Part shown: positions 29,927 through 51,812 of the stretch, piece by piece
How the letters are laid out: every line of letters begins with the position of its first letter
How positions within the stretch are numbered: the stretch's first letter is position 1
NCBI GenBank assembly: GCA_009703125.1
Contig: WLGS01000001.1
Location: 29,860-93,859 of the forward strand
Reading direction: 5' to 3'
DNA: 64,000 nucleotides
DNA from: Actinomycetota bacterium
GTDB lineage: Bacteria; Actinomycetota; Acidimicrobiia; Acidimicrobiales; Ilumatobacteraceae
Position numbers and translations under genes: made by a program
The notes under the pieces: model-generated
What the model was told of the DNA's origin: nothing
The model's database searches: none
The model's input: only the letters and a program-made list of their open reading frames with translations

Positions 29927-30015
29927 AGGTACACCTATCTTTACATACCGTGAAAACACACACGTAAGTGCAATACCCGTCGAGTCTGAGTATGGCGAAA
30001 CTCACGTCTACAGCA

Positions 30016-33000
30016 CTAGATAATGTCTTGCACCATCAAGAATAAAACGATGAGAAGAACTAGCCCAGCAATTCGGGTAAGCCATGTTTGTTTCCACTGA
30101 TGAGTACTTGACCTACCAAACCAACCACAGATAGTTGCAATCAAACTGGGCACACCCATGAATACAAAACCAATGCGTACCATTTGATCAGCGTTGGAAA
30201 TATTTGACGTGAGAAGTCCACCCCACCACTTGGCGATAAGCAATAACACCACAATCTTCAAGAGTCCACGCGGCATAAATATGTGAAGCGAAGGCACATT
30301 GGGAAGAGAATCTTGCATGAGAGGTACCAATTTGGGAACGAGATACAAAATTGCACCCACCCACAATGCCCAGTTATTGCCTATGAATACCTCAGCAACG
30401 AACACGAATATTGCTGTACGCACGAACGACGAAAACACCACCTGACGCACTGTTGGTTCACACAAGTCCGTCACTGTCATTGCACGAAGTTGCGACGGAA
30501 CAAACACTGTTGCGCCATTTTCAAGTACAAAACGTGCTGCCAATGCAAGTGCAGCTGCAATTTGAATATGGGAGATTTGATCTGCATAGTCCGGACGGAA
30601 TCCGATGAGTCCAGGAAGTGCCGAGAACATTGAGCCGCCAGCCCATGCACCAAACAATGTGATAAGCACAAAGTCGGCTGCGCGATCCCATACACCAGTG
30701 AATCCCTGAGTGGCGAGACGACGGAAAGGTCGAGATGCCGTTGCTATCAGCGGTACCGCAAAACTAAACACAAACATTCCAAGAAGACCACGGATTGAGT
30801 CAGCTGAATGAACACCACCACCCAACAGAACAGCAAGTCCAAAAGTCACCACGGCAACAAAACCAAATAGTGCATCAAACACACTCACGACAACAATCAG
30901 TGTGAGGAGGAACAACGCTGGCATCACAACTTCAAATTGGGTATTCACCGCAGCAACAACACCAGTGACCACACCCAACAACGGGACTAATGCCCACAGA
31001 CTTCCAAGCCACGCGCGCAGATAGGCAGCATCGGCAAAGATCGAGCCCAGAAGTGGTGATTGCCGTGAGATTGTGCGTGGGAAATTCGCCATGAGATGAT
31101 CCATGAATCTCAATCGCGGAATACGGAAAATGTCGCGGTTCTTTTCCGAGTTTTCACCAGTTTCTCCTGCCGATACTTCTGCAACGTCCCCAGAGCCACG
31201 GTCACCAGACCCGTCATTGTCTTCGTCATCGTCATTACGACGACCACCGCCAGATGATGAACCGGCCAGACCTGCAAGCGCAAGAAGTGCAACCATTTCT
31301 CCAAGTAAAGCGACAGTTGACTTGGGCTCCGAGCGGGCATCAAAAGGCTCTTGATCTGTGTTAACAGCATCAGTCGAATTATCGGATGGATTCTCAGATT
31401 CTGTTATCGAGGAAATATCAACAACTACGAGACCAATTGAAACAATTGCTGCGCTGCCACTTTGAGCAGTGCCGCTCAACGTGAGGACGTGATCTCCCAC
31501 TTCAATTCCTGCGGGCAGTTCAAAGGCTTGGGAGAAGGTTCCCTGTGTATCGGTGGTAACTGTTCCAAGCAAGACAGGAGTTGAGTTCACCCAGACTTCT
31601 ACACCACTTTGTGCAGCAAAACCTTCGGCGGAAATCTGAATGGTTCGACCCTTGAATGCAATTATCTGAGATTCTCTACCTGTTATTGCGGGGTCGCTTT
31701 CAAGCTTCTGAGGGGTCAGGCGAACGGTAAACAGACCTGGAATCTGAGCGGTTGCAATATTTCCCTGTGCAATTGTTATCTGCATCTCTTGCAGGGCGCC
31801 GTTTATCAATACAACACCACGATTTGGAGCCACTCGCACTCCCCCACTCATGTCCAAGATTTCCATCGGTGGAATCGTGGTTGTGGTCGGCGGCGTAGAA
31901 GTGGACGTAGCAACAGTGGTAGGCGTTACGGAAACACCTGTGTTCGGAGTATCCACTGGGCGCACCGCAGGAACGGAATTTGGTACATCAACTGTTGGCG
32001 GGTTTACCGGTGCTGGGGAGGGCGCCACGGGAGCGAATCGCTGGGTGATGTCGACGGCAAGCTGTGCAGTGACATTGTGTAAATCGGCTGGAGACAAATC
32101 GAGAACGTCCATCTCAGCATTCATTGCTTCGATTTCTGCGTCAGTGTCGATATCGACATATCCCATTGCCCGATACTCAGCCCCCGTGAGAGCACAGTTC
32201 TGATTAGCAATCCCATCTGCACATACCAAGATCTTTAAGACTGCATCTACTAGTGCTTGCACTTCAATCTGAGAGTCAGTTTGTGCCATGGTCATAGTTG
32301 CGAGGTACTGGTTCACAAGCCCAATGTTTCGGTAATCGACGCCAGTGATTCCAAGAGCTTCAAATGTCGATAATGACGGAATGGTGTTTGTCCCGTCATA
32401 AGACTTGATCACCACCAGCGCATTCGCTTGATTCGTGCGCACGGTATCCACAATGTTCTGAAGCTTTGTCAATGAATTGAGGCCGCCAGTGTTGCCGTTC
32501 AAGTTGCCGATTGCCGCAAGAATCAAGGAAATATTCTCAGGTGTTACCCCGGTGAGCCCCAGCAAACTCAATCTTTCAATTGAAATCTCGCTAAGGGGTT
32601 CATTTCCCGTAGCCAGCAGGAATAAGTCGCTCACAATTTCAGATAGAACAACAATTTCCAGATACTCATCGACTGATGTTCGAATCTTTCGATCAAGAAC
32701 AGAATTCAGTAGCGCCGCCTTATCTGTCGTATCGATAGCTCTGATACCAAAACCCTGATACTCGGCAACTGTCAATGACACGTTGGAGTTCGCTGTGCCG
32801 TCAGCACCAGCGAGCACCGCAACAAATCCATTCACTACAGCAGATATCTCACTCGTGGAATCACTGGCCAAACTGCCAATCACAGCAAAGGCTGTTCTCA
32901 CCGCAACTATGTTGCTTATTGTCACTCCACTGACTTCTGCATTTGCAAAATCCGCCAAGGAAGGTGCTACGGAGTTGGATGACCCATCAAACTGGCTGAT

Positions 33001-36000
33001 TACGAGAATTGCGGCGTCACGTGCTTGTTCCACCGCTGAGGCCACAAGAGTTCGCAACGAACTCAGATCGGTGATAGGTGTGTTGTTCGAATTACTGCTA
33101 CGAATTGCCGACAGAATCGCTTCAATATTGTGACTAGTCACACCTGAGATTTCTAACGCAAGGAAATCCTGTGGTGTCAATTCAGGCGATGCAACAGTTC
33201 CCGAGGTTTCGCCAATAATTCTCGCGACAATTGAAGCAAGCGCTGCTACTTCTGTATACGTGTCGACTGCTTGGGTGACCTTGTTGTCCAAAACATCGTT
33301 GAGGAGCCCAATCTCTGAAGACAAATTGATATATGTAAGCCCAAGTGCTGCATAGTCAGTGGCGTTCAGTGATGCTCCGCCATCTGCAAAACCATTTGCG
33401 GCAGCGGCAACTTTGCTCAATGCATCAACAGTTGTTTGTACCTCAGATTGGGAATCGCTTTCTGACGCGGCAATGACTGCCAAGAACGAGTTCACTCCAG
33501 CAAGATTTGCGTTAGTCACACCAGTAACACCAACATTTGCAAAATCACCAAGTGTGGGAACACCTGTCGAACCTTCATAACTTGCAATTACTGCACGCGA
33601 GTCAGCTACAGCATTTGCGATTCCTGTATTCACCACGTTTTGCAACAGCATGAGAGAAGAAACACCGCTTCCATTGTCCGCTGTAGCAGCAATGGCATTC
33701 AGGACTTCAGCCAAGTTGTTGCTCGTGACGCCAGTAATTCCAAGACGAGCGAGATCATCCGCCGTTAGCGCGGGAGATGGTGTTCCACCAGCAGCAAGAA
33801 CACTGATCCGATTGACGATGGTTGCCAAGTAGTCCAGTTCTGCCCATGTATCAATGGCCGACACTAATGAGACATCTACTACCGAATTAAACAACTGTCT
33901 CTCTGATGCAGTGTTAATCACGCCGAGACCAAGAGTTTGGAACTGTGCGAGAGTGATGGCTTCGACGCCATTTGCAACACCATCAGCCGTATTCAGCAAG
34001 GCCACATATGCATTCACTGCATCTTGTACTTCAGTAGATGTGTCAGTAGCGGAAGATGACAGTTCAGCAATAAGTGAGTTCACAGCACCAATGTTCGCTA
34101 CTGAAACACCACTGATTGCAGCATCTGCATAGGTAGACAACGTGGGCGCCACATTGCTTCCAGTGAAGCCCGAAATAACATTAAGCGCGGCCGTTGCATC
34201 GGTTACGGCGTCATCGATCAGTTGACGCAGTTCGGAAAATGAGTCAACACCAGAACCATCGTCTGGCGTAGCGGCAATGGCAGCCAGTACTGCGGCCAAG
34301 TTTTCGCTGGTGACTCCGGTAATTCCAAGAAGAGCAAGAGACGCTGCAGTCAGTGGTGGCGAGACTGCTGTTCCTGAAGCCGTAGCAAAAATAGAATTCA
34401 CAACTTCTGCCACCGAGACCAGTTCAGATTGTGTATCGACGGCATTACTGGAGAGTTCATCAAGTACATCGTTCATCAGACCAGCTTTTGCCGGAGTGTT
34501 GATTGCTGTTACACCATCGGCTACGTACTGCGAGGCCGTCAGTGCGACATTGTTGTTGTTGTTTGAATCTGCGCCCAGGATTGCAGCGGTCTGCGTAGCA
34601 GTAATGATGCGTGCTGGAGAACTAGCGCTGCTCCCGTTCATTGCCGCATCTGTTTGCACTGCAGTGAAAGAATGTGCGCCTTGGGTCAAGGCAGCGGTCG
34701 TGAATGTCCAGGTTCCACCTGCACCCACGACAGCGGTACCAATAACGGTGGTTCCATCAAATATGGACACGGTGGCCCCTACTTCTCCGGTGCCATTTAG
34801 CGTTATTGGTGACGAAACCACGTTGAACGCAGTGATGGTAGGCGCAGCAGGAGCTGTGGTGTCGATAGTGAGAGAAGCATTGGACATACCAGAACTCACG
34901 TTGCCCGCAACGTCTGTGGCAACCGCATCTAGAGCAAATACGGATTGCGCGAGTGGACTTGCAATTTCGGCTGTCCACGCACCACTCACCGCGGTGCGCG
35001 TCGTCGCTAACGAGAGAGCACCAGATCGCACTGTTACAAAAGCATCAGCCTCTGCCACACCAGTCAATACTGGCGTTGCGGAGTTCTTAATCATGTTGCT
35101 GTTTGTGAATACAGGATTAGACGGCTGTACCGAGTCAATAACGACGACTACCGAAGAACTCAACGAGCTTTCATTACCAGCAACGTCCACGGTTTTCGAG
35201 CGGATCTGGTGAGAACCATTTGCAAAGTCAGCAAGCACTGTGAAGTTCCATACACCAGATGCCACAGTCGCACTTCCCTGGAAGTTTGACCCGTTATAGA
35301 TGTCAATTCTTTGGTCGTTTACACCCACTCCGGAAAAAGTTGGTCTAAGTAGCGATGTGACGCGATCCGTCGAAGAGAATCCGGTGTCTGATGATGCTGT
35401 TAAAACTGGTGTCGATGCAGAAGGTGCCGCAGTATCGATCATCACAGTCAGCCCAGCCGAGATCTGACCGATGTTTCCTGCTCGGTCAGTAATTCGTGCA
35501 GAAACAGCGTGAGTGCCATCGGCAAATGTTCCACTGATTGGTACTTCCACGAAACCTGCCAACACATCTTGTTGAGTAATGACCACTTCGCCAATCACTG
35601 TGTTGGAACCATCAAGAAGCGAGAGTGAGTCATTAGCCACAGCACCAAATGATGCAAGTGAGAATACGAACGTGGGCTGAACAATGTTGGTGACATTGTC
35701 CGAATTCGATAGTCCTGTATCGCTTGCATCCGAAAGATTTGGGGTTGAAGGTGCACCATAGGAAGTTCTATCCACTACAACAGTGATGCTTTGAGAGGGT
35801 GTGCCTCTTGTGCCGGAAGCGGATTCAGCTTGTGCACTGATGACATGGGAACCCTGAGAGAAAATTGAATCAGCTTGAACGCGAATTGATTGTGCAGAGA
35901 TTTCAGAGCTCGTCAGTGTCGAGGTGTGAACGACATTAGATCCACTGAGCAGTTTGATCTTGTCGCCAGCAATAAGTGCATTTCCTGAAATCTGTACACC

Positions 36001-45000: not shown

Positions 45001-48000
45001 CACACGATTTTGTTGCGGCGATTGACCCGATGCATATCCTCCGTAATACCCACCGCCACCGGCACCGCCATTAGTAGATGGCGCCGAAGCGCCCACGCCT
45101 AATGCGTTACCAAAGAATTGCGATGCACCAAGACCAGAGCAGTTCCCGTCAATTCCGTTTGCACAACTATTGCTCACGCCTTGACCAGCTACAAGACCAC
45201 CACCTGCACCACCAGCATGGACTGTATGCCCAACACCACCACCGCCACCGGCGACAATGAGACGAGTAGAAAGATTCGCAGTTGTTAGGTTGCGAATGAC
45301 TGCACCGGTCTTTGCTGCAAAGGCGATATCAAGTTCTGTTTTTGCGTAGGTGAAAGTGGTTGTTGTTGGCACCGCAACAACTGAATATGTGCCGTCATAC
45401 GGAGCACCCACACCTGCAACAACCACAGAGTTGCCCGCAACAAATCCGTGTGGCGAGGCAGTAGTGAGAGTCACCACGCGTGAAAGCAACGAGGCTCCCG
45501 TCACTGTTATTCCTCGTCGAATATCAGAGGCTCCACCGCCACCGCCACCTGCTCCCGTACCAAGGCCAGTTCCGCCGCCATTCCAGCCAGCGACAGTGGA
45601 CACTTGAAAGCGTGCCGGATGATTGTCGCCGCCACCGCCACCAACAAAAACAAACAATGTTTCACCCGGAACTACCGGAACTGTTGCAGAAACATGACCA
45701 CCCAAACCGCCTTGCGCAGTCATGCTTCCGCCTTGTGCACCGAATGCACTGACATTTATCCTTGAGACTCCAGCGGGAACGGTGTAGGACTGAATTGATT
45801 CAGTGAATTCAAAGTTTGTTGTTGCAGTAAAACGCGGGAAGTCTGACACTTCGGATGAAAACTCCGATAAACATTCAGTTCCACAATCCTGGTTCACATC
45901 TGTATAGACAGTTGCAATGGAATAGAAGTACGGCGTACCCATTGTGCGACTTGCATGCGTGTACTCAGATGTATTTGCACCGGAAACATTTATGACCTCT
46001 GTGAGAGCGCCTGATGACGTACCCCATCTAATGCGATAGCCAGTTGCTTCTTTGTTTGTTGACGGTGTCCATGCGACATGAACGCGATAGTTCCAACCAG
46101 TTGCAACAAGGTTTGTGGGCGCCGGGATTGTTGCGTCTTGTGCTGTTGTGATGGTGAGTGCGCCGTTACCCGCATTTTCTCCCCGCGTGTGGGCAACAAA
46201 TTGAATACTGGATGCGGTCCAACTAGATCCGCCGCCGCCACCCGCGTAGCCAACGCTTCCATCGCCACCCCAGTAGCCGCCACCACCGCCGCCGCCACTA
46301 GTGGCACCACTTCCGCCGAGGCCAATGCCTCGAGAGCCTGCTGTTTGTGTGCCGCCGTCACCGCCTAGATGGCTGCTGAAATTGGCTCCTGCCGCACCTT
46401 GCAGACCACCGCCAGCACCACCTTCTGCATGAGATCCGCCGCCACCGCCGCCGCCGGCAACAAGAACGCGACGTGAAAGTCCAAATGCAGGGTTCGAGAA
46501 CAACACCGCACCATCTACTGATGCAGAAGCGATGTTTGCACTGGTTCTTGCATAGGTAAAAGTTGTAGTTGTAGGGGCAGAAGCAACGGCGTACGTCCCG
46601 TTGTAGACATCACCAAGTCCAGTAATCACCACTTGGTTGTTCACAGCAAAACCATGAGGCTCAGAAGTGGTCAGTGTGACGACATTGCCAGTTAGGGCAG
46701 CGTTTGTCACGGTGAAGCCTCGTCGAATATCTGTCGCACCGCCGCCACCACCGCCGGTACCAGTACTTACTCCACCACCGTTGTAACCAGCAACAATGCT
46801 GGATCTAAAGGTGAACGGGTAATTGTTTCCGCCACCACCGCCGACGTAAATGAACAATGTTTCACCAGGCGTCACGGGAACTGTTGCAACTACTCGCCCA
46901 CCTCGACCGCTAGCCATAGTTGCATTATTCGCACCAGCTGCACCTCGCGCATCAACGCGAATTTGGGTGACGCCCATAGGCACTTTGTAGGTCTCTGGTG
47001 CTTCAACGAACTCAAAATTTTGTGATGTCTCAAAGCGACCGTCGACGGTAATCGCAGATGAATAGGCAGATAGACAAAAACTGCCACAAGGTTGTGAGAT
47101 ATCTGTGTAGATCGAGGCAATGCGGTAGTAATACGTTTGTCCAACTGGCAAATGAGAGGTTCGCTGCACGAGGCCAGTGGGCCTCACTACGCTCTCCACA
47201 ACTGAAGTTCCTGCCAACGCATAAGTAAAGGTGCGCGCTGTGGGCACAGTTGCCACACGAACAATCCCATTAAACAGAGAATCAACTCCACTGATTGAAA
47301 TTTCTTGACCCACTACTAGGCGGTGATCAACAGCGGTGGTCAAAGTTGCCACAGTGGCAGTCTTAGCTTTAGACACAATTGAAATGGGTGTGGCTGAGTG
47401 TGTAAAGAAATTTGTGTCTCCTCCACTCACATCAAATTGATTCACGATTTGGGTGGGATCGGTTCCCCATCTGATGCGATACCCCGTTACATCATCGAGT
47501 GGTGGAACAACCCACGTGAGTTCGCTCGAACGTGACCAGCCCTTTCCTGCGAATTGTGTGGGAGGAACCATCGTTGTTGTTTGAGGAATGCGCACGCGTA
47601 TTGAAGCACCACCAGTGGCAACAGCAGGTGTGTGAGTGATCCCATACACACCTGTGCCAGTGAACGATGAACCACCGCCGCCACCTGCGTATGCGGCACC
47701 ACCAGCTCCGCCCCAAAATCCGCCGCCGCCGCCGCCTGCAGCGGTAGTGCCACCACTACCCGCTCCGACGGCACTTCCCGTTGACTGCGTTCCCGCGGCA
47801 CCACCGAGGTTGCCTCCATGTGGTGCACCTGCCGATGCGATGAGTCCGCCACCTGATCCACCACCTGCGTGCGATCCTGCACCGCCGCCACCACCTGCAA
47901 CCAGAACTCGCCGTGACCAGCTCGAAGATGGCACTGCTTGAATGACTGCGCCCGTCACAGTTGCTGATGCAACGTTCGCATGTGTTCGCGAATAGGTAAA

Positions 48001-50808
48001 GGATGTGGTGTTGGGTACTGAAGAAATCGAATAGGTGCCGTCGTAGGCACTACCCAAACCCGCAACAACAATGGAATTTCCTACTGCGAGTCCGTGCGCA
48101 GTGGACGAGGTGATTCTCGCGACATTTGATGTCAGCGACGCTTCAGTGATTGCGATACCGCGACGAACATCGCTCGCACCGCCTCCACCTTGACCAGGCG
48201 CACTTCCTGCACCGCCACCGTTCCAACCGCCAGCGGCCCCATTGTTGGAACCTCCGACGAAAAAGAACAACACTTCACCTGGGGTTACAGGCAAGATGGC
48301 ATCCACCTGGCCGGCACGGCCGGCAGCAAAAGTTGTGGCGCCACCAGAAGCTCCAATTGCGGTGACATTTAAACCTGTGATTCCTTGAGGCACGACATAG
48401 GGCTGCGGCGCACCGGTGTGTACAAACACTGTGCTCCTCGCAAACTGAGTCTGGGCAGAAACAGCTGTCGAATAATCCGTGAGACATGCCGTTGTACACG
48501 CTTGCGTATTGTCGGTGTAAACATACGCAACTTGGTAGTGGTACGTCTGGCCCGTACTCAAAGAGTTTGCACGTTGAGCATTGCCCGCAATTGCAAGTGC
48601 AGTAGAAGTGACATTGGCTGCAGTTCGGTTATAGGTAAAAGTTGTCGATGTCACCGACCTCACTACATGTGTTCCATTGAATGTTGGATCTATTTCGGAC
48701 ACAACAACAGAATCTCCAACACTTAAACCGTGCGGAGTAGCGGTTGTCAAAGTGGCGATGTTTGTTCCCAGCGCAACTCTGATGACACGTGTGGGTGAAC
48801 CCATATGAATGAATGAGTCAGTGAGGCGACCGCCAATTCCAAATTCATTCGTCAGAGCATTCGGGTCTGTCCCCCATTTAATTCGAACGCCTGTCACTGC
48901 TGTGTTTAACGATGTTGGCCATTTCAATGCAACTGAATTCACTCCCGCAGTTGCAGTTAATTGACCAGGAGTCAATGGATTGGAGGCGATCTGCACAATG
49001 TCGACATCACACGTTTCTTGCTCTTCAACATCACATGCGTTCTCCACGGGCGGCTGCGACGATGACGTATTTGTCAGCAACGCTTGCAACTCCGCCGGGC
49101 TTGCCGATGGATTGTGAGCAGCGAGTCGGGCAAGAGCAGCGGACACATGAGCCGCCGCCATTGAAGTGCCTTGTCGATATGCATAACTATCGGCGCCTGG
49201 ACCTTGCTCTCCTGCATTAGAAAGCGAATAAATCCCCAGGTCGCCACTTGCATTGAGATCTCCGCCAGGAGCTGCGATATGAATTCCGCTACCAAAGTTT
49301 GAATAATGCGCACGCTGGCCTGAAGCATCAGTTGCGCCGACAGCAATAACTCCATCACAGTTCGCAGGTGAATACTCGCTGACATTGCTGTTTGCATTAC
49401 CTGCCGCTACTGCAACAACACTTCCATTTGCGATTGCGATATCAATTGCAGTTTGGAAAGTTGAACTACATGCGCCCCTTGTGGCAAAAGACAAATTGAT
49501 GACATCGGCTGGATTCTCGTTGTCCGCTACTCCTTCGACGCGACCACCTGAGGCCCAAATGATCGATGCTGCGATATCGGAAGACAAACCTCCTCGCCAA
49601 CTAATCGCACGAATAGGCAAGATGTTTGCCAGTGGTACAAGCCCAGCAATGCCGAGAGAGTTATTGATCTGCGCACCGATAATTCCGGCCACGTGGGTTC
49701 CATGCCATGAACTGTTGCGAACTGGGTCAAGTCCGCGCCAGTCACCTGGGTCATTTGGATTGCTGTCCCATCCAAGTTGGCCATAGGTCTCGGTGTCTAC
49801 ATAGTCACCATCGAATCCCACTTCATATTCCCCAGGTGTGCGAACAGCCGATAACTCAGGATGATTGGAGACAAAGTCGAATCCACTCAAGATTCGATCT
49901 CCAAAGTCGCCATGGCGAGTGATTCCGGTATCAATCACTGCAACAGTGGATCCCTCGCCTAGGTCTTGAGGTGTGCGCCCAAACGCAGGTGGGAAAAGGT
50001 GCTGTCCTGCCACTCCAGATGAGGACCAAAGATTCCATTGCTTCGATGAATATTCCGGGTCTGCGGTGTCGTTTTGGGTAGTCGTCACGACTTCTTCGGC
50101 CTCTACCCACTTCACTCGTGGGTCGGCCTCTAAAGACTCGATAATGAGTTGAGATGTTTCTTGCGTGACCGGCGCGGCCAAACGAACAGTGTGTAGTCCA
50201 TCGCCAAGGTCTGACTCGGGGACCAGCTCGACGCCTTCAACAACACCAGACCCGGTGGCAACCCCAGGCGATTGATCCGCCTCGACACCAGCTTCATACT
50301 GCACAATCAAACGGCTTACGACGCCATCAAAACCATTTGTCGGAATCACAGTGAGTGGACCAGCCAGCTCGCTCACGCCTACTTCGTTTCGAGCAGCCAC
50401 ATGAATTGTGTACGACGCACCGTTGACGAGTCCGTTGATCTGTGAAGTTGTCTGTGTCGGATCTATAACAACTTCGATGCCTCCAGGCTCAACTGCAACG
50501 ACATACGAAAGTGGTGGTGTGGAGTTCTCAGTGAGTGCATCCCACGACACAACAACTCCGTTATCGATGGCACGTGCCACAACATTTTGTGGAGCTTGTG
50601 CACATTGCGCAGGCATCACCACATCAACCTCAGTGAGCACCGCAAAGGTTTCAGAACATGGGAAAGTGTGGCCGACAATAACCTCGGCGCTTGCTGCAGT
50701 GGTAGGGACAAATGCGACTACAAGACATGCCACAAGCGAGACCGGCAGGGCGTTCGTGACAAAGCGGAGCCGTCCTCTCTTTTTAGAAAATAGACTCCAC
50801 TTAAGCAC
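30016..50808 (-). CDS. giant (6,930 aa) modular cell-surface protein: signal peptide, FN3, S8 subtilase, 6 x (FN3 + glycine-rich domain), Ig-like stalk, helical repeats, C-terminal polytopic membrane domain
   Basis: One frame is open for 20,793 nt from GTG 50808 to TAG 30016. Recognisable domain motifs occur along the whole length. All opposite-strand ORFs are short and low-complexity. Confidence 0.9.
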   Translation of the reverse strand: MLKWSLFSKKRGRLRFVTNALPVSLVACLVVAFVPTTAASAEVIVGHTFPCSETFAVLTEVDVVMPAQCAQAPQNVVARAIDNGVVVSWDALTENSTPPLSYVVAVEPGGIEVVIDPTQTTSQINGLVNGASYTIHVAARNEVGVSELAGPLTVIPTNGFDGVVSRLIVQYEAGVEADQSPGVATGSGVVEGVELVPESDLGDGLHTVRLAAPVTQETSQLIIESLEADPRVKWVEAEEVVTTTQNDTADPEYSSKQWNLWSSSGVAGQHLFPPAFGRTPQDLGEGSTVAVIDTGITRHGDFGDRILSGFDFVSNHPELSAVRTPGEYEVGFDGDYVDTETYGQLGWDSNPNDPGDWRGLDPVRNSSWHGTHVAGIIGAQINNSLGIAGLVPLANILPIRAISWRGGLSSDIAASIIWASGGRVEGVADNENPADVINLSFATRGACSSTFQTAIDIAIANGSVVAVAAGNANSNVSEYSPANCDGVIAVGATDASGQRAHYSNFGSGIHIAAPGGDLNASGDLGIYSLSNAGEQGPGADSYAYRQGTSMAAAHVSAALARLAAHNPSASPAELQALLTNTSSSQPPVENACDVEEQETCDVDIVQIASNPLTPGQLTATAGVNSVALKWPTSLNTAVTGVRIKWGTDPNALTNEFGIGGRLTDSFIHMGSPTRVIRVALGTNIATLTTATPHGLSVGDSVVVSEIDPTFNGTHVVRSVTSTTFTYNRTAANVTSTALAIAGNAQRANSLSTGQTYHYQVAYVYTDNTQACTTACLTDYSTAVSAQTQFARSTVFVHTGAPQPYVVPQGITGLNVTAIGASGGATTFAAGRAGQVDAILPVTPGEVLFFFVGGSNNGAAGGWNGGGAGSAPGQGGGGASDVRRGIAITEASLTSNVARITSSTAHGLAVGNSIVVAGLGSAYDGTYSISSVPNTTSFTYSRTHANVASATVTGAVIQAVPSSSWSRRVLVAGGGGGAGSHAGGGSGGGLIASAGAPHGGNLGGAAGTQSTGSAVGAGSGGTTAAGGGGGGFWGGAGGAAYAGGGGGSSFTGTGVYGITHTPAVATGGASIRVRIPQTTTMVPPTQFAGKGWSRSSELTWVVPPLDDVTGYRIRWGTDPTQIVNQFDVSGGDTNFFTHSATPISIVSKAKTATVATLTTAVDHRLVVGQEISISGVDSLFNGIVRVATVPTARTFTYALAGTSVVESVVRPTGLVQRTSHLPVGQTYYYRIASIYTDISQPCGSFCLSAYSSAITVDGRFETSQNFEFVEAPETYKVPMGVTQIRVDARGAAGANNATMASGRGGRVVATVPVTPGETLFIYVGGGGGNNYPFTFRSSIVAGYNGGGVSTGTGGGGGGATDIRRGFTVTNAALTGNVVTLTTSEPHGFAVNNQVVITGLGDVYNGTYAVASAPTTTTFTYARTSANIASASVDGAVLFSNPAFGLSRRVLVAGGGGGGGSHAEGGAGGGLQGAAGANFSSHLGGDGGTQTAGSRGIGLGGSGATSGGGGGGGYWGGDGSVGYAGGGGGSSWTASSIQFVAHTRGENAGNGALTITTAQDATIPAPTNLVATGWNYRVHVAWTPSTNKEATGYRIRWGTSSGALTEVINVSGANTSEYTHASRTMGTPYFYSIATVYTDVNQDCGTECLSEFSSEVSDFPRFTATTNFEFTESIQSYTVPAGVSRINVSAFGAQGGSMTAQGGLGGHVSATVPVVPGETLFVFVGGGGGDNHPARFQVSTVAGWNGGGTGLGTGAGGGGGGASDIRRGITVTGASLLSRVVTLTTASPHGFVAGNSVVVAGVGAPYDGTYSVVAVPTTTTFTYAKTELDIAFAAKTGAVIRNLTTANLSTRLIVAGGGGGVGHTVHAGGAGGGLVAGQGVSNSCANGIDGNCSGLGASQFFGNALGVGASAPSTNGGAGGGGYYGGYASGQSPQQNRVGTGGYSGGGGGSSWTVPGAGFVSHTQGARAGNGLISIFAPEGGSLSAPNEFDAYGFQAQVMLNWTPSPQAAVTGYRISWGTSQGVLNRTIDIPGRLTQSFNHHGNTFAVTARAITSNVASLTTATAHGISVGSEILVQGVGAPFDGTYIATTGTTGTTLRYSVVHANIASAAVTPTGVVSLTKSLDINTTYYYEISAIFTDATRPCNTACESASSTQRYATPIFTKDVSFGATDTVQTYAVPPGVSWLQFDAQGAKGGAGAPAVGGNGGRIEGAIPVTPGEELYIYVGGRGGGDRINTQHVGGWNGGGSGSGVNAGGGGGGATDIRRNKLVVTNKIIQNSIATLTTAETHGLSVGNRVIVAGVGSEFDGTFVLTAINAASKTISYPVSTGTLTGRASSGTVSGPSAWATEASLATRVVVAGGGGGGGHSTGIGGIGGGLVAGEGVSNSCANGIDGNCSGLGGSQTYGNALGAGGNAATTSSGGGGGGYWGGWPAGRSPQLARVGTGGYSGGGGGSSFSTATALSNTDTRTIAGVMHTRGYNTGNGSLILSVPTRAYPTGVEAQGWSGYNAISWDESDISGASMYKVYGGTTQNPSTLLATLPYGVNAFEHHGPSFVATNISLTSNVAVVTTSTAHGMAVGNRVVVSGVHSVLNGIRTITAVTATTISFAVTSANIASRSVSTGVVQLQNRLSMGTQYFYRVSIVSGSIESQRSTEVTATPSLSSSETFNAIDAVQIFTVPANVNKIFVTADGAMGSTGNPAAGGRGGRTQGAISVTPGEKLYVYVGGEGGDLLASSKHLGGWNGGGNGTGASAGGGGGGATDIRRNVFNVTNKIVQSSAATLTTQNPHGFSVGQTVIVTGVGTPYDGTFTVTAVPTTSTFSYAVGVGSIAGTATTGTVSGPSLWSTPASLATRLVVAGGGGGGGHSTGIGGVGGGLIAGEGVSNSCGNGIDGNCSGYGGSQTYGNALGTGGAASTPASGGGGGGYWGGWAAGRSPQLDRVATGGYSGGGGGSSYTAPEVTSVFHAQGIISGDGLMEIAWSSSPIVTGVQATPLDRAVSVSWNESFLTSLTGYRVYGGTAANPTTLLATVPTGTLGYSHTGLTNETPYFYRIAPIVTINGVTSEAPLSGDVTATPTALTTVTTSFSGSVVPFVVPTGVSWLQVDAMGGQGGAGNPAVGGRGGRTQGAIPVTPGETLYRYVGGAGNSNVGGWNGGGNGSGATSGGGGGGATDIRRNMFNVTNRIVQSSRATLTTTSPHGFSVGHTVIVAGVGTPYDGTFTVTAVPTTTTFSYAVGVASLASSATTGTVNGPSLWSTAGSLATRIIVAGGGGGGGHSTGTGGVGGGLIAGEGVSNSCGNGIDGNCSGFGGSQTYGNALGTGGVASTPASGGGGGGYWGGWAAGRSPQLARIATGGYSGGGGGSSYTAPEVAVPVHTRGHQSGAGSLTISYSVDNTVPVVSGISSPNPAGNYLAEREVIVNVAFSEAVIVTGTPTLTLNAGTRDVAVNYLSGSGSSTLSFRYVVATGDLISALDVKDTTSLALNGGTIRDRVGNNADVTLPVPGSSDSLAGSKLLSIDGAVPLKPTVLSASGIDGIALDWADNVETDLFKYRIYSCSGLVASSCASESSFSVLSSVDDSVSAFEHIAVGRGLTYYYYVTAIDLRGNESPASDVVSWILPIPIMVVTPSITGVTPTSDLTPLITGAADAGATVLIFMDGSSTPLGSTVADSFGAYSFSPSSNLTPGLRTFRARATVSGVKTGSSGVSSELTINIDTTAPTFTSVLRQAPSSQTTGLDALTFRLTFSEPVSGLDSSDFVVTGSTATVSRIAMVSGTLGSYDATVSGGDLASLNGVVGLGFVANPTVTDIAGNSLTGIVPTGVAQTYTLDNRNPVVSITSSAATLGGTGTAVITFTLDQASTDFGVDDVATSGGTISGFTGSGMSYTASFSPSLGFSGTAQISVDAGAFSNASGVFNTSSSLSIAVDTAAPRVISIQSSTSNGMYRTGSIIDVTVTFNEAITVNTGGGVPSLILETGATDRSANFVSASGAVATFRYTVQVGDLSTDLDIQSVDALALNGGAIRDVVGNIANRTLMSPGSAGSLAANAALIIDTVAPTAPTGLVLTPVGGTVTSNKLSATNTNLTATATIIPGEATGGAATLYLDGALIATDSTISSTDSTATFTLGATTTAQLQALVTGSGVVTVKLADLAGNLSLASSGVSLSVDYVVPTITLSSNRTSVIAGQTATVTATLSEPSINFNLGDITVVGGSAGTFSGSGTSYSFVLTPTSNSTVAMVASVTTGAFTDAAGNPNEVSNTVTSTVDTAIPVVSSVSSTTANGAYRAGSVVDISVVFTDAVIVQTGGGTPVLALNAAAGASATFVAGSGTSTLTFRYTVLAGHTSGDLDYATVNALSLNAGTIRDLSGNDASVSLPTVGGASSLAGNKAIVIDTLAPTSPTNLALAPVGGTVVANTLLASTTNLTASANIIAGQATNGTANLLLGETVLATDNSIGSSDTTLAFSLGLSSSAALQSAIAAGGAVTVQLIDAAGNVSALSSSVMLVVDYVVPTITLTSVTTTLRVGQTAVITATLSEPSSNFVITDIATTEGSVSNFVAVSSTVYRFTFTPAVGRNQVTGSVAVLAGVFTDTAGNGNAPSASLSFAIDTLAPNAPVISGTSPITTNDVSPTISGTAEAGSTVVVYDNSSSPATELKTLVATDGTWSFTDVALLDGDHSITAVATDIAGNASIASQGVTWRIDSVPPVVTMSAVAGNDDVTIAEKNAGVTVSGTVENNATMTLTFAGLTKSITPVSGSWSYTLTSSDWTQIGTTALVVFIATATDTATNVTERSRSVAMNLSSVVAPGVPQLLLADDSGTPGDSRTNQRTVRITTALTNSGSLVHKPGQLLQLVDLSGGVVASRVLTSADISAGAYEFTVSSLDDGTYGYRAKVSGEGNSAVSTSDLMLVIDNRIPGTPGAPDLEASSDSGISSSDNITNKNDGWFTIAIDGVQISGNALIAGDKIKLLSGSNVVHTSTLTSSEISAQSIRVQADSIFSQGSHVISAQAESASGTRGTPSQSITVVVDRTSYGAPSTPNLSDASDTGLSNSDNVTNIVQPTFVFSLASFGAVANDSLSLLDGSNTVIGEVVITQQDVLAGFVEVPISGTFADGTHAVSARITDRAGNIGQISAGLTVMIDTAAPSASTPVLTASSDTGFSSTDRVTSLLRPTFSGVGVNDQRIDIYNGSNFQGSATVASGVWNFTVLADFANGSHQIRSKTVDVAGNESSLSSSVVVVIDSVQPSNPVFTNSNMIKNSATPVLTGVAEADAFVTVRSGALSLATTRTAVSGAWTAEIASPLAQSVFALDAVATDVAGNVSSGMSNASLTIDTTAPAAPTITAFNVVSSPITLNGTGEVGATVSIFDGTTVIGTAVVGAGGTWTFTTAALTQGAHSFTAVQTDAAMNGSSASSPARIITATQTAAILGADSNNNNNVALTASQYVADGVTAINTPAKAGLMNDVLDELSSNAVDTQSELVSVAEVVNSIFATASGTAVSPPLTAASLALLGITGVTSENLAAVLAAIAATPDDGSGVDSFSELRQLIDDAVTDATAALNVISGFTGSNVAPTLSTYADAAISGVSVANIGAVNSLIAELSSSATDTSTEVQDAVNAYVALLNTADGVANGVEAITLAQFQTLGLGVINTASERQLFNSVVDVSLVSAIDTWAELDYLATIVNRISVLAAGGTPSPALTADDLARLGITGVTSNNLAEVLNAIAATADNGSGVSSLMLLQNVVNTGIANAVADSRAVIASYEGSTGVPTLGDFANVGVTGVTNANLAGVNSFLAVIAASESDSQSEVQTTVDALSKVAAAANGFADGGASLNATDYAALGLTYINLSSEIGLLNDVLDNKVTQAVDTYTEVAALASIVARIIGETSGTVASPELTPQDFLALEISGVTSHNIEAILSAIRSSNSNNTPITDLSSLRTLVASAVEQARDAAILVISQFDGSSNSVAPSLADFANAEVSGVTISNIVAVRTAFAVIGSLASDSTSEISAVVNGFVAVLAGADGTANSNVSLTVAEYQGFGIRAIDTTDKAALLNSVLDRKIRTSVDEYLEIVVLSEIVSDLFLLATGNEPLSEISIERLSLLGLTGVTPENISLILAAIGNLNGNTGGLNSLTKLQNIVDTVRTNQANALVVIKSYDGTNTIPSLSTFEALGITGVDYRNIGLVNQYLATMTMAQTDSQIEVQALVDAVLKILVCADGIANQNCALTGAEYRAMGYVDIDTDAEIEAMNAEMDVLDLSPADLHNVTAQLAVDITQRFAPVAPSPAPVNPPTVDVPNSVPAVRPVDTPNTGVSVTPTTVATSTSTPPTTTTIPPMEILDMSGGVRVAPNRGVVLINGALQEMQITIAQGNIATAQIPGLFTVRLTPQKLESDPAITGRESQIIAFKGRTIQISAEGFAAQSGVEVWVNSTPVLLGTVTTDTQGTFSQAFELPAGIEVGDHVLTLSGTAQSGSAAIVSIGLVVVDISSITESENPSDNSTDAVNTDQEPFDARSEPKSTVALLGEMVALLALAGLAGSSSGGGRRNDDDEDNDGSGDRGSGDVAEVSAGETGENSEKNRDIFRIPRLRFMDHLMANFPRTISRQSPLLGSIFADAAYLRAWLGSLWALVPLLGVVTGVVAAVNTQFEVVMPALFLLTLIVVVSVFDALFGFVAVVTFGLAVLLGGGVHSADSIRGLLGMFVFSFAVPLIATASRPFRRLATQGFTGVWDRAADFVLITLFGAWAGGSMFSALPGLIGFRPDYADQISHIQIAAALALAARFVLENGATVFVPSQLRAMTVTDLCEPTVRQVVFSSFVRTAIFVFVAEVFIGNNWALWVGAILYLVPKLVPLMQDSLPNVPSLHIFMPRGLLKIVVLLLIAKWWGGLLTSNISNADQMVRIGFVFMGVPSLIATICGWFGRSSTHQWKQTWLTRIAGLVLLIVLFLMVQDII
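30019..31311 (-). other. C-terminal polytopic membrane domain (~430 aa, about 11-12 hydrophobic helices) of the giant protein
   Basis: First helix ALLGEMVALLALAGLAG, then a charged loop (GGGRRNDDDEDNDGSGDRGSGD...). This is followed by helices such as LGSLWALVPLLGVVTGVVAAV, ALFLLTLIVVVSVFDALFGFVAVVTFGLAVLL, LLGMFVFSFAVPLIA, FVLITLFGAWAGGSMFSALPGLI and IAGLVLLIVLFLMV. Confidence 0.7.
32040..34580 (-). repeat. about 13 predicted alpha-helical ~65-70-aa repeats organised as four ~200-aa super-repeats plus a partial fifth
   Basis: Recurring triplet of sub-repeats: L(T)xxxYxxxG(V/L)xxI(N/D)Txxxxxx(L)N(D/S)V(L)D ; LTxxxLxxLGITGVTSxNLxxVLxAIAAT ; (T/S)LxxFAxxG(V)(T/S)GVxxxN(I/L)xxVN. Confidence 0.7.
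34580..40660 (-). other. Ig-like / FN3 stalk region of the giant protein
   Basis: Many ~100-aa beta-rich units with ID(T)xAP boundaries. One FN3 is present (LDWADN...YYYYVTAIDLRGNES), along with DxGxSxxDxxTN-type Ig repeats (SDSGISSSDNITN, SDTGLSNSDNVTN, SDTGFSSTDRVTS). Confidence 0.6.
37045..39067 (-). repeat. two diverged 1,011-bp (337-aa) super-repeats, each of three Ig-like domains
   Basis: VDTAAPRVISIQSS... (from ~39067) and VDTAIPVVSSVSS... (from ~38056) align along their whole length, ending at AIDTLAPNAP (~37045). Confidence 0.75.
40663..48990 (-). repeat. six tandem 400-500-aa modules, each FN3 + glycine-rich (ALK/LTK-like) domain
   Basis: The GGGGG(A/S)(T/S)D(I/V)RR motif recurs near 48168, 46728, 45522, 44030, 42535 and 41310. 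Module starts lie near 48990, 47575, 46135, 44870, 43350 and 41880. Confidence 0.85.
49068..49971 (-). other. subtilisin-like peptidase S8 catalytic domain inside the giant ORF
   Basis: Triad motifs in canonical order: VAVIDTGI (Asp codon 49930-49932), HGTHVAGIIGA (His codon 49702-49704), GTSMAAAHVSA (Ser codon 49162-49164). It is preceded by an I9-propeptide-like segment. Confidence 0.85.
50344..50595 (-). other. N-terminal fibronectin type III-like domain of the giant protein
   Basis: aa ~72-155: APQNVVARAIDNGVVVSWDAL...GASYTIHVAARNEVGVSE. Confidence 0.6.
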
Positions 50809-51109
50809 CTATAAATAATAGAACCCGCTTACCGAAACTCATATTTGAGATACGGCACGGAAGGCTATGAAAGCCCAAAAACTATGACCCTCAAGTAGTG
50901 GTTGAGAGTCACAACTCCAAGCATTCTGCAACAAATGCAGTGTCACAATTCCATTTTGCAGACCTGCAGTTGTGTGTTCCAAGGAACTCTCCTCTCGAGT
51001 GACACCTGCAACAAGATCGCATGGACTCACCGCACCCGTGTCTCGCCGGAAGTAACCGGCATCACGTCAGTACAAGACGTTGTTTCTAGGGGAACTATGA
51101 CGAAGAGGT

Positions 51110-51724: not shown

Positions 51725-51784
51725 CAGTTTTCACCTTTCTTCACGCCAGTTGTTGCTCTTGTGCACCTACAAGTCATGGATAAA

Positions 51785-51799: not shown

Positions 51800-51812
51800 A
51801 TATACTTTCGGT

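What the first reader, a model, noticed from the sequence alone, without database searches (positions are those of the whole stretch)
30016..50808. One uninterrupted 20.8-kb ORF (6,930 codons) encoding a protease-headed, membrane-rooted surface megaprotein
Seen in the sequence: the minus-strand frame is open from GTG 50808 to TAG 30016, one third of the window. From N- to C-terminus the parts are as follows.
- A signal peptide (KKRGRLR, a hydrophobic core, ASA).
- An FN3 domain.
- An I9-like propeptide plus an S8 subtilase with an intact D/H/S triad.
- Six FN3 + glycine-rich modules.
- About 2,000 aa of Ig-like/FN3 units, including DxGxSxxDxxTN-type Ig repeats of the kind known from giant Bap/RTX-type adhesins.
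- About 850 aa of helical repeats.
- A Pro/Thr linker and a last Ig-like domain.
- About 430 aa with 11-12 hydrophobic helices.

Inference: this is a fibre rooted in the cytoplasmic membrane by its own multi-pass C-terminal domain. It does not use LPXTG sorting, which the neighbouring RCC1 protein does use. It would project ligand-binding modules and a protease outward. I cannot assign this combination of parts to a described adhesin family. TetR genes flank the gene on both sides (29282..29926 and 51110..51724).
Basis: partly seen in the sequence, partly recalled or inferred. Interest (0 to 1): 0.85.

Follow-up and report, generated by a model that had tools for sequence, protein, structure and literature searches.

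The report
Giant membrane-rooted protease fibre of lake Actinobacteria
A real, conserved 20.8-kb gene of abundant freshwater Actinobacteria (acIV, Ilumatobacteraceae) encodes a ~695-kDa surface fibre with a protease at its tip. The fibre is held in the cell membrane by a previously undescribed 12-helix C-terminal module that many other surface proteins of this lineage also carry.

Summary
The ORF is exactly as described: 30016..50808 on the minus strand, 6,930 codons, no internal stop. It is not an assembly artefact. An independent metagenome contig carries a collinear orthologue (80% identity over aa 54-6930, 41 gaps). About 15 more orthologues at 52-89% identity are collinear as far as their contigs reach. 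pN/pS is about 0.1-0.2 in every region.

The domain order is confirmed:
- signal peptide and FN3;
- an S8 subtilase (D293/H369/S549);
- six FN3 + ALK/LTK-type glycine-rich modules, each with an inserted small domain;
- about 2,000 aa of Big_12/Big_13/Big_6 Ig repeats;
- 4.3 copies of a 196-aa all-helical repeat;
- a Pro/Thr linker and an Ig-like domain;
- one TM helix, an acidic cytoplasmic loop and 11 more TM helices.

Only the I9 propeptide is unsupported.

The C-terminal module has no Pfam, NCBIfam or PDB match by sequence or fold. It nevertheless defines at least 544 clusters (50% identity), always C-terminal and behind very different extracellular passengers. A related passenger type, and the same anchor-proximal Ig domain, also occur with LPXTG. 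It therefore acts as a lineage-specific surface anchor. Its strong conservation hints at more than passive anchoring.

The flanking TetR genes are not conserved partners. Verdict: a new variant of a known kind, the giant Gram-positive surface proteinase or adhesin.

The parts
30016..50808 (-). Whole ORF: 6,930 codons plus TAG, predicted ~695 kDa
   Evidence: Full-length collinear orthologue L057, 80% identity over aa 54-6930. pN/pS about 0.1-0.2 in all regions.
50686..50808 (-). Sec-type signal peptide (aa 1-41; KKRGRLR, hydrophobic core, ASA|E)
   Evidence: Sequence and hydropathy. A similar N-terminus in orthologue L066.
50347..50595 (-). N-terminal FN3 domain (aa 72-154)
   Evidence: Pfam fn3, E 2.4e-9.
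50023..50328 (-). Putative subtilase prodomain (aa 161-262). The assignment rests on position only.
   Evidence: No Pfam hit, including Inhibitor_I9, at E<=10. Conserved in N-terminal orthologues such as P0123.
49060..49959 (-). Peptidase S8 catalytic domain (aa 284-583): D293, H369, N471, S549
   Evidence: Pfam PF00082, 169 bits. PDB 5yl7 at 3.5e-69 and AprV2/BprV at about 1e-59. Motif positions.
40654..49008 (-). Six modules of FN3-like domain + ALK/LTK-type glycine-rich (TNF-like + polyglycine) domain (aa 601-3385). Each GRD, and four of the six FN3-like domains (modules 1, 2, 4 and 5), carry a small inserted domain of ~60-80 aa (motif LTTxxPHGxxVG...DGT...TTFTY).
   Evidence: Pfam PF12810, 274 bits over 10 stretches. 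Motif counts. Alignment A6 shows the insert is absent from paralogue GRDs. The only PDB hit of the GRD profile is LTK 7nx0. fn3 above threshold in module 3.
34609..40653 (-). About 2,000 aa of tandem bacterial Ig-like domains (aa 3386-5400)
   Evidence: Pfam Big_13 x6, Big_12 x4, Big_6 x3. NCBIfam Ca_tandemer x5.
32074..34608 (-). All-helical repeat rod (aa 5401-6245 plus a partial unit to about aa 6270): 4.3 copies of ~196 aa, each made of three ~65-aa sub-repeats
   Evidence: Self-BLAST, 37-43% identity between copies. Alignment A4. AF2 pLDDT 88, all alpha. No Pfam, PHROG or PDB match.
31861..32073 (-). Pro/Thr-rich linker (aa 6246-6316), presumed to span the cell wall
   Evidence: Composition T 21%, P 21%. 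Equivalent P/T tracts in paralogues.
31399..31860 (-). Anchor-proximal Ig-like domain (aa 6317-6470; VEVWVNSTPxLLG...GxHxLTLSG)
   Evidence: Conserved across the anchor family. Homologous to the pre-LPXTG domain of the neighbouring RCC1 protein, 39% identity over 56 aa, E 1e-9.
31261..31317 (-). TM0, the stop-transfer helix (aa 6498-6516)
   Evidence: Hydropathy. AF2 helix. Followed by RR and an acidic loop.
31039..31260 (-). Acidic cytoplasmic loop (aa 6517-6590) with a conserved ERxSxDVADVSV-type motif
   Evidence: Consensus of alignment A1. pLDDT below 50, so probably disordered.
30019..31038 (-). Polytopic membrane domain of 11 TM helices (aa 6591-6930), with invariant motifs RPFRR, WDR..D and FIGNNWALW and an R..E pair in TM6
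   Evidence: At least 544 clusters at E<=1e-30. No Pfam, NCBIfam or PDB sequence hit and no PDB fold hit. Lowest dN/dS in the protein, 0.067.
51110..51724 (-). Upstream TetR-family gene on the same strand (context only; conservation not shown)
   Evidence: Pfam TetR_N.
29282..29959 (-). Downstream TetR-family gene on the same strand (context only; absent from the closest relative)
   Evidence: Pfam TetR_N and TetR_C_11. L001 goes from the orthologue's stop straight into the ABC-2 transporter genes.

Best explanation
The gene encodes a Sec-exported cell-surface fibre of a freshwater acIV (Ilumatobacteraceae) actinobacterium. The fibre is about 695 kDa and, by my rough estimate, about 0.2 µm long. 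It stays attached to the cell through its own C-terminal membrane module.

Proposed sequence of events:
1. The N-terminal signal peptide sends the chain through Sec (inferred).
2. TM0 (aa 6498-6516) stops transfer. The acidic loop stays in the cytoplasm and 11 further helices insert into the membrane. This topology is supported by the positive-inside rule.
3. The anchor-proximal Ig-like domain and the Pro/Thr linker cross the wall zone (inferred).
4. The helical rod, about 20 Ig domains and six FN3/glycine-rich modules form the stalk and binding surface.
5. An active-looking S8 subtilase sits at the distal tip.

Functionally it works like a greatly elongated cell-envelope proteinase or adhesin. 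It would be a tethered protease plus binding modules that captures and degrades proteinaceous material near the cell, so that the products are not lost by diffusion. This role is inferred.

The C-terminal module is the lineage's general, sortase-independent way of fixing large passengers to the cell. Its invariant charged and aromatic residues on both membrane faces suggest it also binds a partner or has an activity of its own. That part is unknown.
For: The gene is real and under selection:
- The ORF is intact.
- There is a full-length collinear orthologue, L057/L058, and about 15 partial ones at 52-89% identity.
- pN/pS is about 0.1-0.2 everywhere.
- Internal DNA repeats reach at most 88% identity over 300 nt.

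The passenger is extracellular:
- It has a signal peptide and only extracellular-type domains.
- In the proposed topology, K+R is 15.5 in the inside loops and 2.4 in the outside loops across 32 homologues.

The C-terminal module acts as an anchor:
- It is always C-terminal.
- It is found in 56 genome loci, by record title all freshwater Acidimicrobiia/acIV MAGs apart from a few odd bin labels.
- The ORFs that carry it range from about 1,040 aa to more than 3,700 aa.
- At least 544 clusters at 50% identity match at E<=1e-30.
- The passengers differ: GRD, Big_13, fn3, SWM_repeat, RCC1, MBG, FG-GAP and C-type lectin.
- Complete smaller paralogues run signal peptide, GRD, Ig, helical, P/T, Ig, anchor.
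- The same pre-anchor Ig domain, and a related RCC1 passenger, occur with LPXTG in the neighbouring protein.

The protease is probably active:
- The triad and oxyanion Asn are intact and the closest solved relatives are secreted subtilases.
- The S8 region is 78% identical to the orthologue's.
Against: There is no experimental evidence of expression, surface location, proteolytic activity or ligand binding.

A single TM helix would be enough for passive anchoring. An 11-TM bundle with more than 25 invariant residues and the lowest dN/dS in the protein implies a function that the anchor model does not explain.

The nutritional role of the protease is an analogy to lactocepin-type CEPs. The S8 domain is closer to AprV2/Pseudoalteromonas-type secreted subtilases and lacks CEP hallmarks.

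The TM-domain model is only moderately confident (pLDDT 69), so the absence of fold matches is not conclusive.

The cell-envelope structure of aquatic Acidimicrobiia is unknown (PMC7771536). 'Wall-spanning' is therefore an assumption.
Confidence: 0.6

Rival explanations
1. The C-terminal module is an active receptor-like or energy-coupled membrane machine. In this reading the giant ectodomain is an antenna or lever. Binding or mechanical load would be transmitted through TM0 and the conserved acidic loop to the 11-TM bundle, which would act as a channel, a transducer or a PMF-coupled mover. By architecture this resembles polycystin-1 or adhesion GPCRs (a comparison from my own knowledge).
For: The TM domain is the most conserved part of the family: invariant D/R/E/N/W residues, an R..E pair in TM6, the cytoplasmic RPFRR and WDR motifs, and a conserved loop motif. 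Its dN/dS is the lowest in the protein, 0.067. SWM_repeat passengers, a Pfam family described as 'putative flagellar system-associated repeat', occur on the same module.
Against: No similarity to any channel, transporter or receptor was found by sequence or fold. No internal repeat typical of transporters was found. No conserved neighbouring partner gene was seen: orthologue flanks are not syntenic. By my own knowledge, acIV bacteria are regarded as non-motile.
Confidence: 0.2
2. The protein is a protective or structural surface coat. This fibre and its paralogues would form a fuzzy outer layer that keeps phages or grazers at a distance or acts as a decoy. The subtilase would serve only for self-maturation or remodelling of the coat.
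For: There are several paralogues with different tips per genome: two in the 2.0-Mb contig DAIODP010000001.1 (L008, L019) and two in ZE-03apr19-LR-44. GRD-module number varies between orthologues, as in L066. The gene lies next to a flexible island that is absent from the closest relative.
Against: The gene itself is collinear and under strong purifying selection across species. It shows none of the hypervariability usual for phage-interaction surfaces. Nothing indicates lattice formation.
Confidence: 0.12
3. The ORF is an assembly artefact: a collapsed-repeat chimera, or several genes fused by error.
For: The gene is repetitive and very long. One related long contig (L073) shows the gene split into five calls.
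Against: Independent assemblies give the same uninterrupted architecture: L057/L058 are 6,912 aa open and collinear with only 41 gaps, and L001 is 86% identical over 3,773 aa with 6 gaps. pN/pS is about 0.1-0.2 in every segment. Internal DNA repeats reach at most 88% identity.
Confidence: 0.02

Closest known systems
Lactocepin-type cell-envelope proteinases of Gram-positive bacteria (PrtP, ScpA/C5a peptidase); comparison from my own knowledge
   Same: Both have a signal peptide, a prodomain and an S8 catalytic domain at the distal end. Both follow it with FN3/Ig-like domains, a helical spacer, a Pro/Thr-rich wall-spanning tract and a C-terminal anchor. The logic is the same: a protease tethered to the cell.
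   Different: This protein is about 3-4 times longer. It has no PA-domain insert: the Pfam S8 match is a single stretch covering profile positions 1-276 of 288. It adds six ALK/LTK-type glycine-rich modules. It has no LPXTG and is anchored by a 12-TM module. Its S8 domain is closest to AprV2/BprV and a Pseudoalteromonas subtilase.
Ebh-type giant staphylococcal surface proteins (~1 MDa, helical FIVAR-GA repeats, C-terminal membrane anchor); comparison from my own knowledge
   Same: Both are giant Gram-positive fibres with a rod of helical repeats. Both are retained through a C-terminal membrane segment instead of sortase.
   Different: Ebh has a single TM helix; this protein has TM0 plus 11. 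The helical repeats here have no Pfam match, so they are not FIVAR or GA. This protein also has a protease head and GRD modules.
RTX/Bap-type giant adhesins of Gram-negative bacteria (LapA, SiiE, MpIBP, BapA)
   Same: They share tandem Big_13 / 'Ca_tandemer' Ig repeats with DxGxSxxDxxT motifs. They are of similar size and have a presumed adhesive stalk.
   Different: Those proteins are exported C-terminus first by T1SS, with RTX repeats and a C-terminal secretion signal. This one has an N-terminal Sec signal, no HemolysinCabind hit, only 2 stray GGxGxD motifs and a polytopic C-terminus.
ALK/LTK receptor glycine-rich domain (Pfam PF12810; PDB 7nx0)
   Same: All six modules match PF12810. The profile of these modules hits only LTK in the PDB, aligning the GGGGGAT..R and (V)AGGGGG segments.
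   Different: This is a bacterial surface fibre, not a receptor kinase. Each GRD carries an ~80-aa inserted domain between those two segments. Any ligand is unknown.
Polycystin-1 / adhesion-GPCR architecture (analogy only; from my own knowledge)
   Same: Both combine a very large ectodomain of Ig-like and lectin-like repeats with a C-terminal multi-pass (7-11 TM) domain.
   Different: No sequence or fold similarity was detected. There is no GPS/GAIN site. The organism is bacterial.

Membership tests
Peptidase S8 (subtilase) | Match to the family profile above the curated threshold | tested here: met
   PF00082, 169.2 bits against a cutoff of 21.8, aa 284-583.
Peptidase S8 (subtilase) | Catalytic Asp-His-Ser in that order, plus the oxyanion Asn | tested here: met
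   D293 (VAVIDTG), H369 (HGTHVAG), N471 (AAGNAN) and S549 (GTSMAA). These align to 5yl7.
Peptidase S8 (subtilase) | Inhibitor_I9-type N-terminal propeptide (common in the family but not obligatory) | tested here: inconclusive
   No Pfam hit in aa 155-270 at E<=10. A ~100-aa segment does sit in the usual position.
Lactocepin-type cell-envelope proteinase | PA-domain insertion in the S8 domain and a C-terminal LPXTG sortase signal | tested here: not met
   No PA hit, and the S8 match is a single uninterrupted stretch. No LPXTG anywhere in the protein.
Mycosin (T7SS-associated S8, TIGR03921) | Score at or above the equivalog cutoff | tested here: not met
   108.8 bits against a cutoff of 278.75.
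Sortase-anchored LPXTG surface proteins | C-terminal LPXTG + hydrophobic segment + basic tail | tested here: not met
   The regular expression LP.TG finds nothing. The neighbouring RCC1 protein does have LPITG...RSRRRS.
RTX / T1SS giant adhesins | Tandem Ca-binding Ig-like repeats | tested here: met
   Big_13 at 226 bits and Ca_tandemer at 106.8 bits.
RTX / T1SS giant adhesins | RTX nonapeptide block and a C-terminal T1SS signal, with no N-terminal Sec signal | tested here: not met
   No HemolysinCabind hit. Only 2 isolated GGxGxD motifs. An N-terminal signal peptide is present, and the C-terminus is a 12-TM module.
ALK/LTK glycine-rich domain (PF12810) | Profile match above the gathering score | tested here: met
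   274.2 bits against a cutoff of 24.5, over 10 stretches. LTK 7nx0 is the sole PDB hit of the module profile, E 0.0024.
ALK/LTK glycine-rich domain (PF12810) | TNF-like sandwich with a polyglycine-II helix lattice | not tested
Ebh-like helical-repeat giants (FIVAR/GA) | FIVAR or GA module profile matches in the helical region | tested here: not met
   No significant Pfam hit in aa 5400-6260. No PDB fold match.
acIV C-terminal polytopic anchor module (undescribed; defined here) | Extreme C-terminal Ig-like domain + TM0 + acidic loop + 11 TM with the RPFRR, WDR and FIGNNWALW motifs, behind a signal-peptide-bearing extracellular passenger | tested here: met
   Alignments A1 and A3. 56 genome loci. 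At least 544 representative clusters. Passenger survey.

The most novel reading that the evidence does not exclude
The conserved C-terminal unit (TM0 + acidic loop + 11-TM bundle) is not a passive anchor. It would be a new class of bacterial membrane machine, either a mechano- or ligand-gated transducer or channel, or an ion-coupled mover. It would be fused directly to giant ectodomains, giving planktonic Actinobacteria polycystin-like 'antenna receptors'.
Probability: 0.2. Interest if true: 0.85.

Novelty: new variant of a known kind. Interest (0 to 1): 0.62.

Why it matters
acIV Ilumatobacteraceae are among the dominant bacterioplankton of lakes and have small genomes. The related MAG contig DAIODP010000001.1 is 2.02 Mb. 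This lineage nevertheless spends about 1% of such a genome on one conserved gene.

The work defines a large, unannotated C-terminal membrane-anchor family of at least 544 clusters at 50% identity. The family appears to be this lineage's alternative to sortase/LPXTG for displaying large surface proteins. This bears on a stated unknown: the envelope of aquatic Acidimicrobiia is uncharacterised (PMC7771536).

The gene also gives a concrete candidate for cell-tethered proteolysis in oligotrophic plankton. It provides a bacterial context for the ALK/LTK glycine-rich fold. acIV cultures now exist (PMC12381374), so the predictions can be tested.

Tried and rejected
- Pfam at E<=10, NCBIfam and PHROGs on the TM module and the helical repeat: no hit for the TM module; only insignificant Pfam hits (best E 0.0099, all far below their cutoffs) for the helical repeat.
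- PDB sequence search with the anchor profile: only noise at E>=0.4.
- Foldseek against PDB with the AF2 models of the TM module (pLDDT 69) and the helical repeat (pLDDT 88): no hit at E<=0.001 and TM-scores of at most about 0.2.
- hhalign of the N-terminal half of the TM domain against the C-terminal half, to look for a transporter-like internal repeat: probability 0.1, so none.
- An apparent stand-alone TM protein (P0057, 370 aa): it is a fragment of a frameshifted giant gene in L073.
- Conserved operon partner or TetR linkage: rejected. L001 lacks the downstream TetR, and the flanks of more distant orthologues share nothing with the window.
- I9 propeptide: not detected.
- E1_FCCH-like identity of the inserted small domain: E 0.16 only, not significant.
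- Promoter, terminator and operator scans of the flanks: nothing above shuffled expectation.
- Literature searches for a description of this family or of acIV giant proteins: none found.
- Single-sequence phmmer of one GRD module against PDB: only a spurious scFv linker hit.
Full report
**1. Observation**

The minus-strand ORF 30016..50808 exists exactly as reported: 6,930 codons, a GTG start and a single terminal TAG. By my own arithmetic, a stop-free run of this length in ~52% GC DNA has a chance probability of about e^-333. The predicted product is about 695 kDa and acidic, with 479 D+E against 278 K+R.

**2. Is it a real gene?**

Yes.

- A scan of metagenome contigs with a mid-gene probe returned L057 and L058, from contigs Ga0208463_1000009 (57 kb) and Ga0208083_1000078. 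Their ORF is open for 6,912 aa within the fetched stretch. It is collinear with the window protein from aa 54 to 6930 at 80% identity with only 41 gap positions.
- Genome locus L001, a Lake Mendota Ilumatobacteraceae MAG, is 86% identical over the last 3,773 aa with 6 gaps.
- Some 15 further loci at 52-65% identity are collinear for as far as their contigs reach.
- L066 contains the N-terminus with its own signal-like peptide. It is about one glycine-rich module shorter.
- Nei-Gojobori estimates against L057 give pN/pS of about 0.1-0.2 in every region. Where dS could be computed, dN/dS runs from 0.067 to 0.14, and synonymous sites are near saturation.
- Internal DNA repeats reach at most 88% identity over 300 nt, so repeat collapse is unlikely.

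The artefact hypothesis is effectively excluded.

**3. Organism**

All close relatives come from freshwater MAGs labelled Ilumatobacteraceae, Acidimicrobiia or acIV (lineage). A few records labelled 'Bifidobacterium breve' or 'Limnohabitans' from the same lake studies are probably mislabelled or mis-binned.

**4. Anatomy, from N- to C-terminus**

- **aa 1-41:** Sec-type signal peptide.
- **aa 72-154:** FN3.
- **aa 161-262:** sits where a subtilase prodomain would be, but has no Pfam match. The 'I9-like' call is therefore unsupported.
- **aa 284-583:** Peptidase_S8 at 169 bits, with D293, H369, N471 and S549. The closest solved relatives are a Pseudoalteromonas subtilase (5yl7, 3.5e-69) and Dichelobacter AprV2/BprV. 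The mycosin model scores far below its cutoff.
- **aa 601-3385:** six modules, each an FN3-like domain followed by an ALK/LTK-type glycine-rich domain.
  - Pfam PF12810 scores 274 bits over 10 stretches, and GATDIRR and GGGGGSS each occur six times.
  - A profile of the six modules hits only the LTK ectodomain (7nx0) in the PDB.
  - Alignment with the GRDs of smaller paralogues shows that every GRD here carries an inserted domain of about 80 aa, placed exactly between the GGGGGAT.RR and VAGGGGG segments.
  - A related insert interrupts four of the six FN3-like domains (modules 1, 2, 4 and 5). This explains why only module 3 reaches the fn3 threshold.
- **aa 3386-5400:** tandem Big_12, Big_13 and Big_6 Ig domains, also matched by NCBIfam 'Ca_tandemer'.
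- **aa 5401 to about 6270:** 4.3 copies of a 196-aa unit at 37-43% identity. Each unit is built of three ~65-aa sub-repeats.
  - AlphaFold models two units as an all-helical array at pLDDT 88.
  - The repeat has no significant Pfam or PHROG match and no PDB fold match.
  - It has only 7 sequence homologues in the word-indexed search.
- **aa 6246-6316:** Pro/Thr linker.
- **aa 6317-6470:** an Ig-like domain.
- **aa 6498-6516:** TM0.
- **aa 6517-6590:** an acidic, probably disordered loop with a conserved ERxSxDVADVSV-like motif.
- **aa 6591-6930:** 11 further TM helices.

**5. The C-terminal module is the new element**

It has no hit in Pfam at E<=10, NCBIfam, PHROGs, PDB sequences or PDB folds. 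The AF2 model is of moderate quality (pLDDT 69, pTM 0.69), so the missing fold match is suggestive rather than conclusive.

The family is nevertheless large:

- More than 130 homologues appear in the first search.
- There are 56 loci in species-representative genomes.
- With a profile read against 1.84 billion representatives, 544 clusters match at E<=1e-30 and 4,626 at E<=1e-3. The weaker matches may include hits to the Ig-like part only.
- Every source that names any of these proteins calls them 'hypothetical' or names them after the passenger.

In every case the module is at the extreme C-terminus. In the genome loci, the ORF carrying it usually runs off the 10-kb upstream flank, so it is longer than 3,700 aa. 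The complete examples range from about 1,040 to about 2,470 aa.

Complete paralogues (L019, L038, L039, L045, L048) run: signal peptide, glycine-rich domain, Ig/FN3/CshA repeats, P/T tract, Ig-like domain, module. The shorter complete members P0066, P0076, P0094 and P0117 carry a helical segment ahead of the Ig-like domain.

Across 33 longer members the passengers include Big_13, fn3, ALK_LTK_GRD, Gly_rich_2, SWM_repeat, RCC1, MBG, FG-GAP, CshA and C-type lectin.

A topology with the passenger outside, the acidic loop inside and the C-terminus outside is supported by the positive-inside rule. Across 32 homologues, mean K+R sums to 15.5 in the proposed cytoplasmic loops and 2.4 in the external ones.

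**6. Anchor function**

The neighbouring RCC1/MBG protein (19562..22636, minus strand) ends in LPITG, a hydrophobic segment and RSRRRS.

- Its pre-anchor domain is homologous to the megaprotein's anchor-proximal Ig-like domain: 39% identity over 56 aa, E 1e-9.
- An RCC1 passenger related to it occurs with the polytopic module in P0249: 28% identity over 692 aa.

A homologous base domain, and a related passenger type, thus occur with either LPXTG or the polytopic module. This is the strongest in-silico argument that the module is a surface-retention device.

The only apparent stand-alone copy (P0057) is a fragment of a frameshifted giant gene.

**7. More than an anchor?**

The TM domain has the lowest dN/dS in the protein, 0.067. 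It has more than 25 invariant positions across paralogues that share only 35-57% identity. These include RPFRR and WDR..D on the cytoplasmic side, FIGNNWALW at an external turn, and an R..E pair within TM6. Passive anchoring does not require this, so the 'active membrane machine' reading stays open at about 20%.

No internal duplication was found. No conserved neighbouring gene was found either.

**8. Mechanism proposed**

The following steps are inferred unless stated otherwise.

- Export is through Sec, starting at the N-terminus.
- TM0 stops transfer and the 11-TM bundle inserts.
- The Ig-like base and the P/T linker traverse the wall.
- The helical rod, Ig stalk and GRD modules project the S8 domain outward. 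My rough estimate of the reach is about 0.2 µm, from domain counts.
- After prodomain cleavage, the protease would remain tethered as the new N-terminus.

The layout parallels the cell-envelope proteinases of Gram-positive bacteria: protease head, FN3-like domains, helical spacer, P/T wall-spanner, anchor (from my own knowledge). For an oligotrophic planktonic cell, a tethered protease with binding modules would retain hydrolysis products near its transporters.

**9. Context**

Both flanking ORFs are TetR-family genes on the same strand as the megagene.

- The closest relative, L001, lacks the downstream TetR. It also lacks a ~10.7-kb segment of the window (16710-27458) that carries the RCC1 protein, a third TetR gene and a ZnuABC-type transporter.
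- More distant orthologues share no flanking similarity with the window.

TetR control is therefore not a conserved feature. The remaining neighbours are housekeeping genes: a cysteinyl-tRNA ligase and a second class I tRNA ligase of the Ile/Leu/Met/Val group, an LCP-family protein, an MFS transporter and an acyl-CoA dehydrogenase.

**10. Comparison and novelty**

The protein fails the defining tests for several known families:

- lactocepin-type CEPs: no PA insert and no LPXTG;
- mycosins: below the cutoff;
- sortase substrates: no LPXTG;
- RTX/T1SS adhesins: no RTX block or T1SS signal, and an N-terminal Sec signal instead;
- FIVAR/GA helical giants such as Ebh: no profile match.

It is a bona fide S8 subtilase and carries bona fide PF12810 and Big_13 domains. 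No paper describing the family was found. PMC7771536 states that the cell-wall structure of aquatic Acidimicrobiia is unknown.

I rate it a new variant of a known kind: a giant Gram-positive surface proteinase or adhesin with a new and widespread anchoring module and a new helical repeat. Interest is 0.62.

Noticed in passing
window 19562-22636 (-): A 1,024-aa RCC1/MBG surface protein ends in LPITG, a hydrophobic segment and RSRRRS. Its last Ig-like domain is homologous to the megaprotein's anchor-proximal domain. A related RCC1 passenger occurs elsewhere (P0249) with the polytopic anchor, so the two anchor types look interchangeable in this lineage.
   Followed up: yes
window 16710-27458 and 29282-29959, compared with L001: The closest relative (Lake Mendota MAG, 86-88% aa identity) lacks a ~10.7-kb segment. 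The segment carries the RCC1 protein, a TetR gene, a ZnuABC-type transporter and a zf-HC2 anti-sigma-like gene. The relative also lacks the TetR gene immediately downstream of the megagene. This looks like a flexible island next to a conserved giant gene.
   Followed up: partly
whole window, e.g. 50926-50934 and 51006-51014 in the megagene's upstream intergenic region: The 9-mer TTGTTGCAG/CTGCAACAA occurs 14 times in 64 kb against 1.24 expected (maximum 5 in 100 shuffles). It is the only non-Gly-codon word among the top 9-mers. It appears on both strands, in genes and between them, with no shared flanking context. In related loci it is less frequent, roughly 1 per 16 kb. Two copies lie upstream of the megagene, next to GTGACAC motifs. 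This is unexplained.
   Followed up: partly
window 40654-49008 (GRD modules), compared with L057: Synonymous divergence is clearly lower in the six glycine-rich modules (pS 0.52) than elsewhere (0.64-0.81). Possible causes are codon or sequence constraint in the poly-Gly tracts, or gene conversion between modules. GRD-module number also differs between orthologues: L066 is about one module shorter.
   Followed up: no
L073 (JGI 3300071516, Ga0620986_18090): A related giant gene is called as five consecutive same-strand pieces of 500, 264, 2,649, 285 and 370 aa. It is either a pseudogene or an assembly with indel errors. It is followed by a collagen-repeat gene and a TetR gene on the opposite strand.
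   Followed up: no
L002, L041, L043, L045 and L036 (record titles): Contigs that carry this acIV-specific anchor family are deposited as 'Bifidobacterium breve', 'uncultured Bifidobacterium sp.' or 'Limnohabitans sp.' MAGs from lake samples. These are probably taxonomic mislabels or mis-binned contigs.
   Followed up: no
window 51750-53447 (+): Further upstream, beyond the TetR gene and divergent from it, lies a 565-aa ORF with weak beta-propeller-like hits (EPTP, DUF6242) and a C-terminal OmpA-family peptidoglycan-binding domain. It is another envelope-associated protein next to the locus.
   Followed up: no
P0247 (645 aa, 44-kb JGI contig) and P0347 (5,995 aa, Logan contig): The ~65-aa helical sub-repeat (LTxxDLxxLGITGVTxxNLxAVxxAI...) recurs in a distant protein, P0247, at 33% identity. 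The same order of Ig repeats, helical repeats and polytopic anchor recurs at 29-38% identity in another ~6,000-aa giant, P0347. The stalk design is therefore older than this orthologue group.
   Followed up: partly
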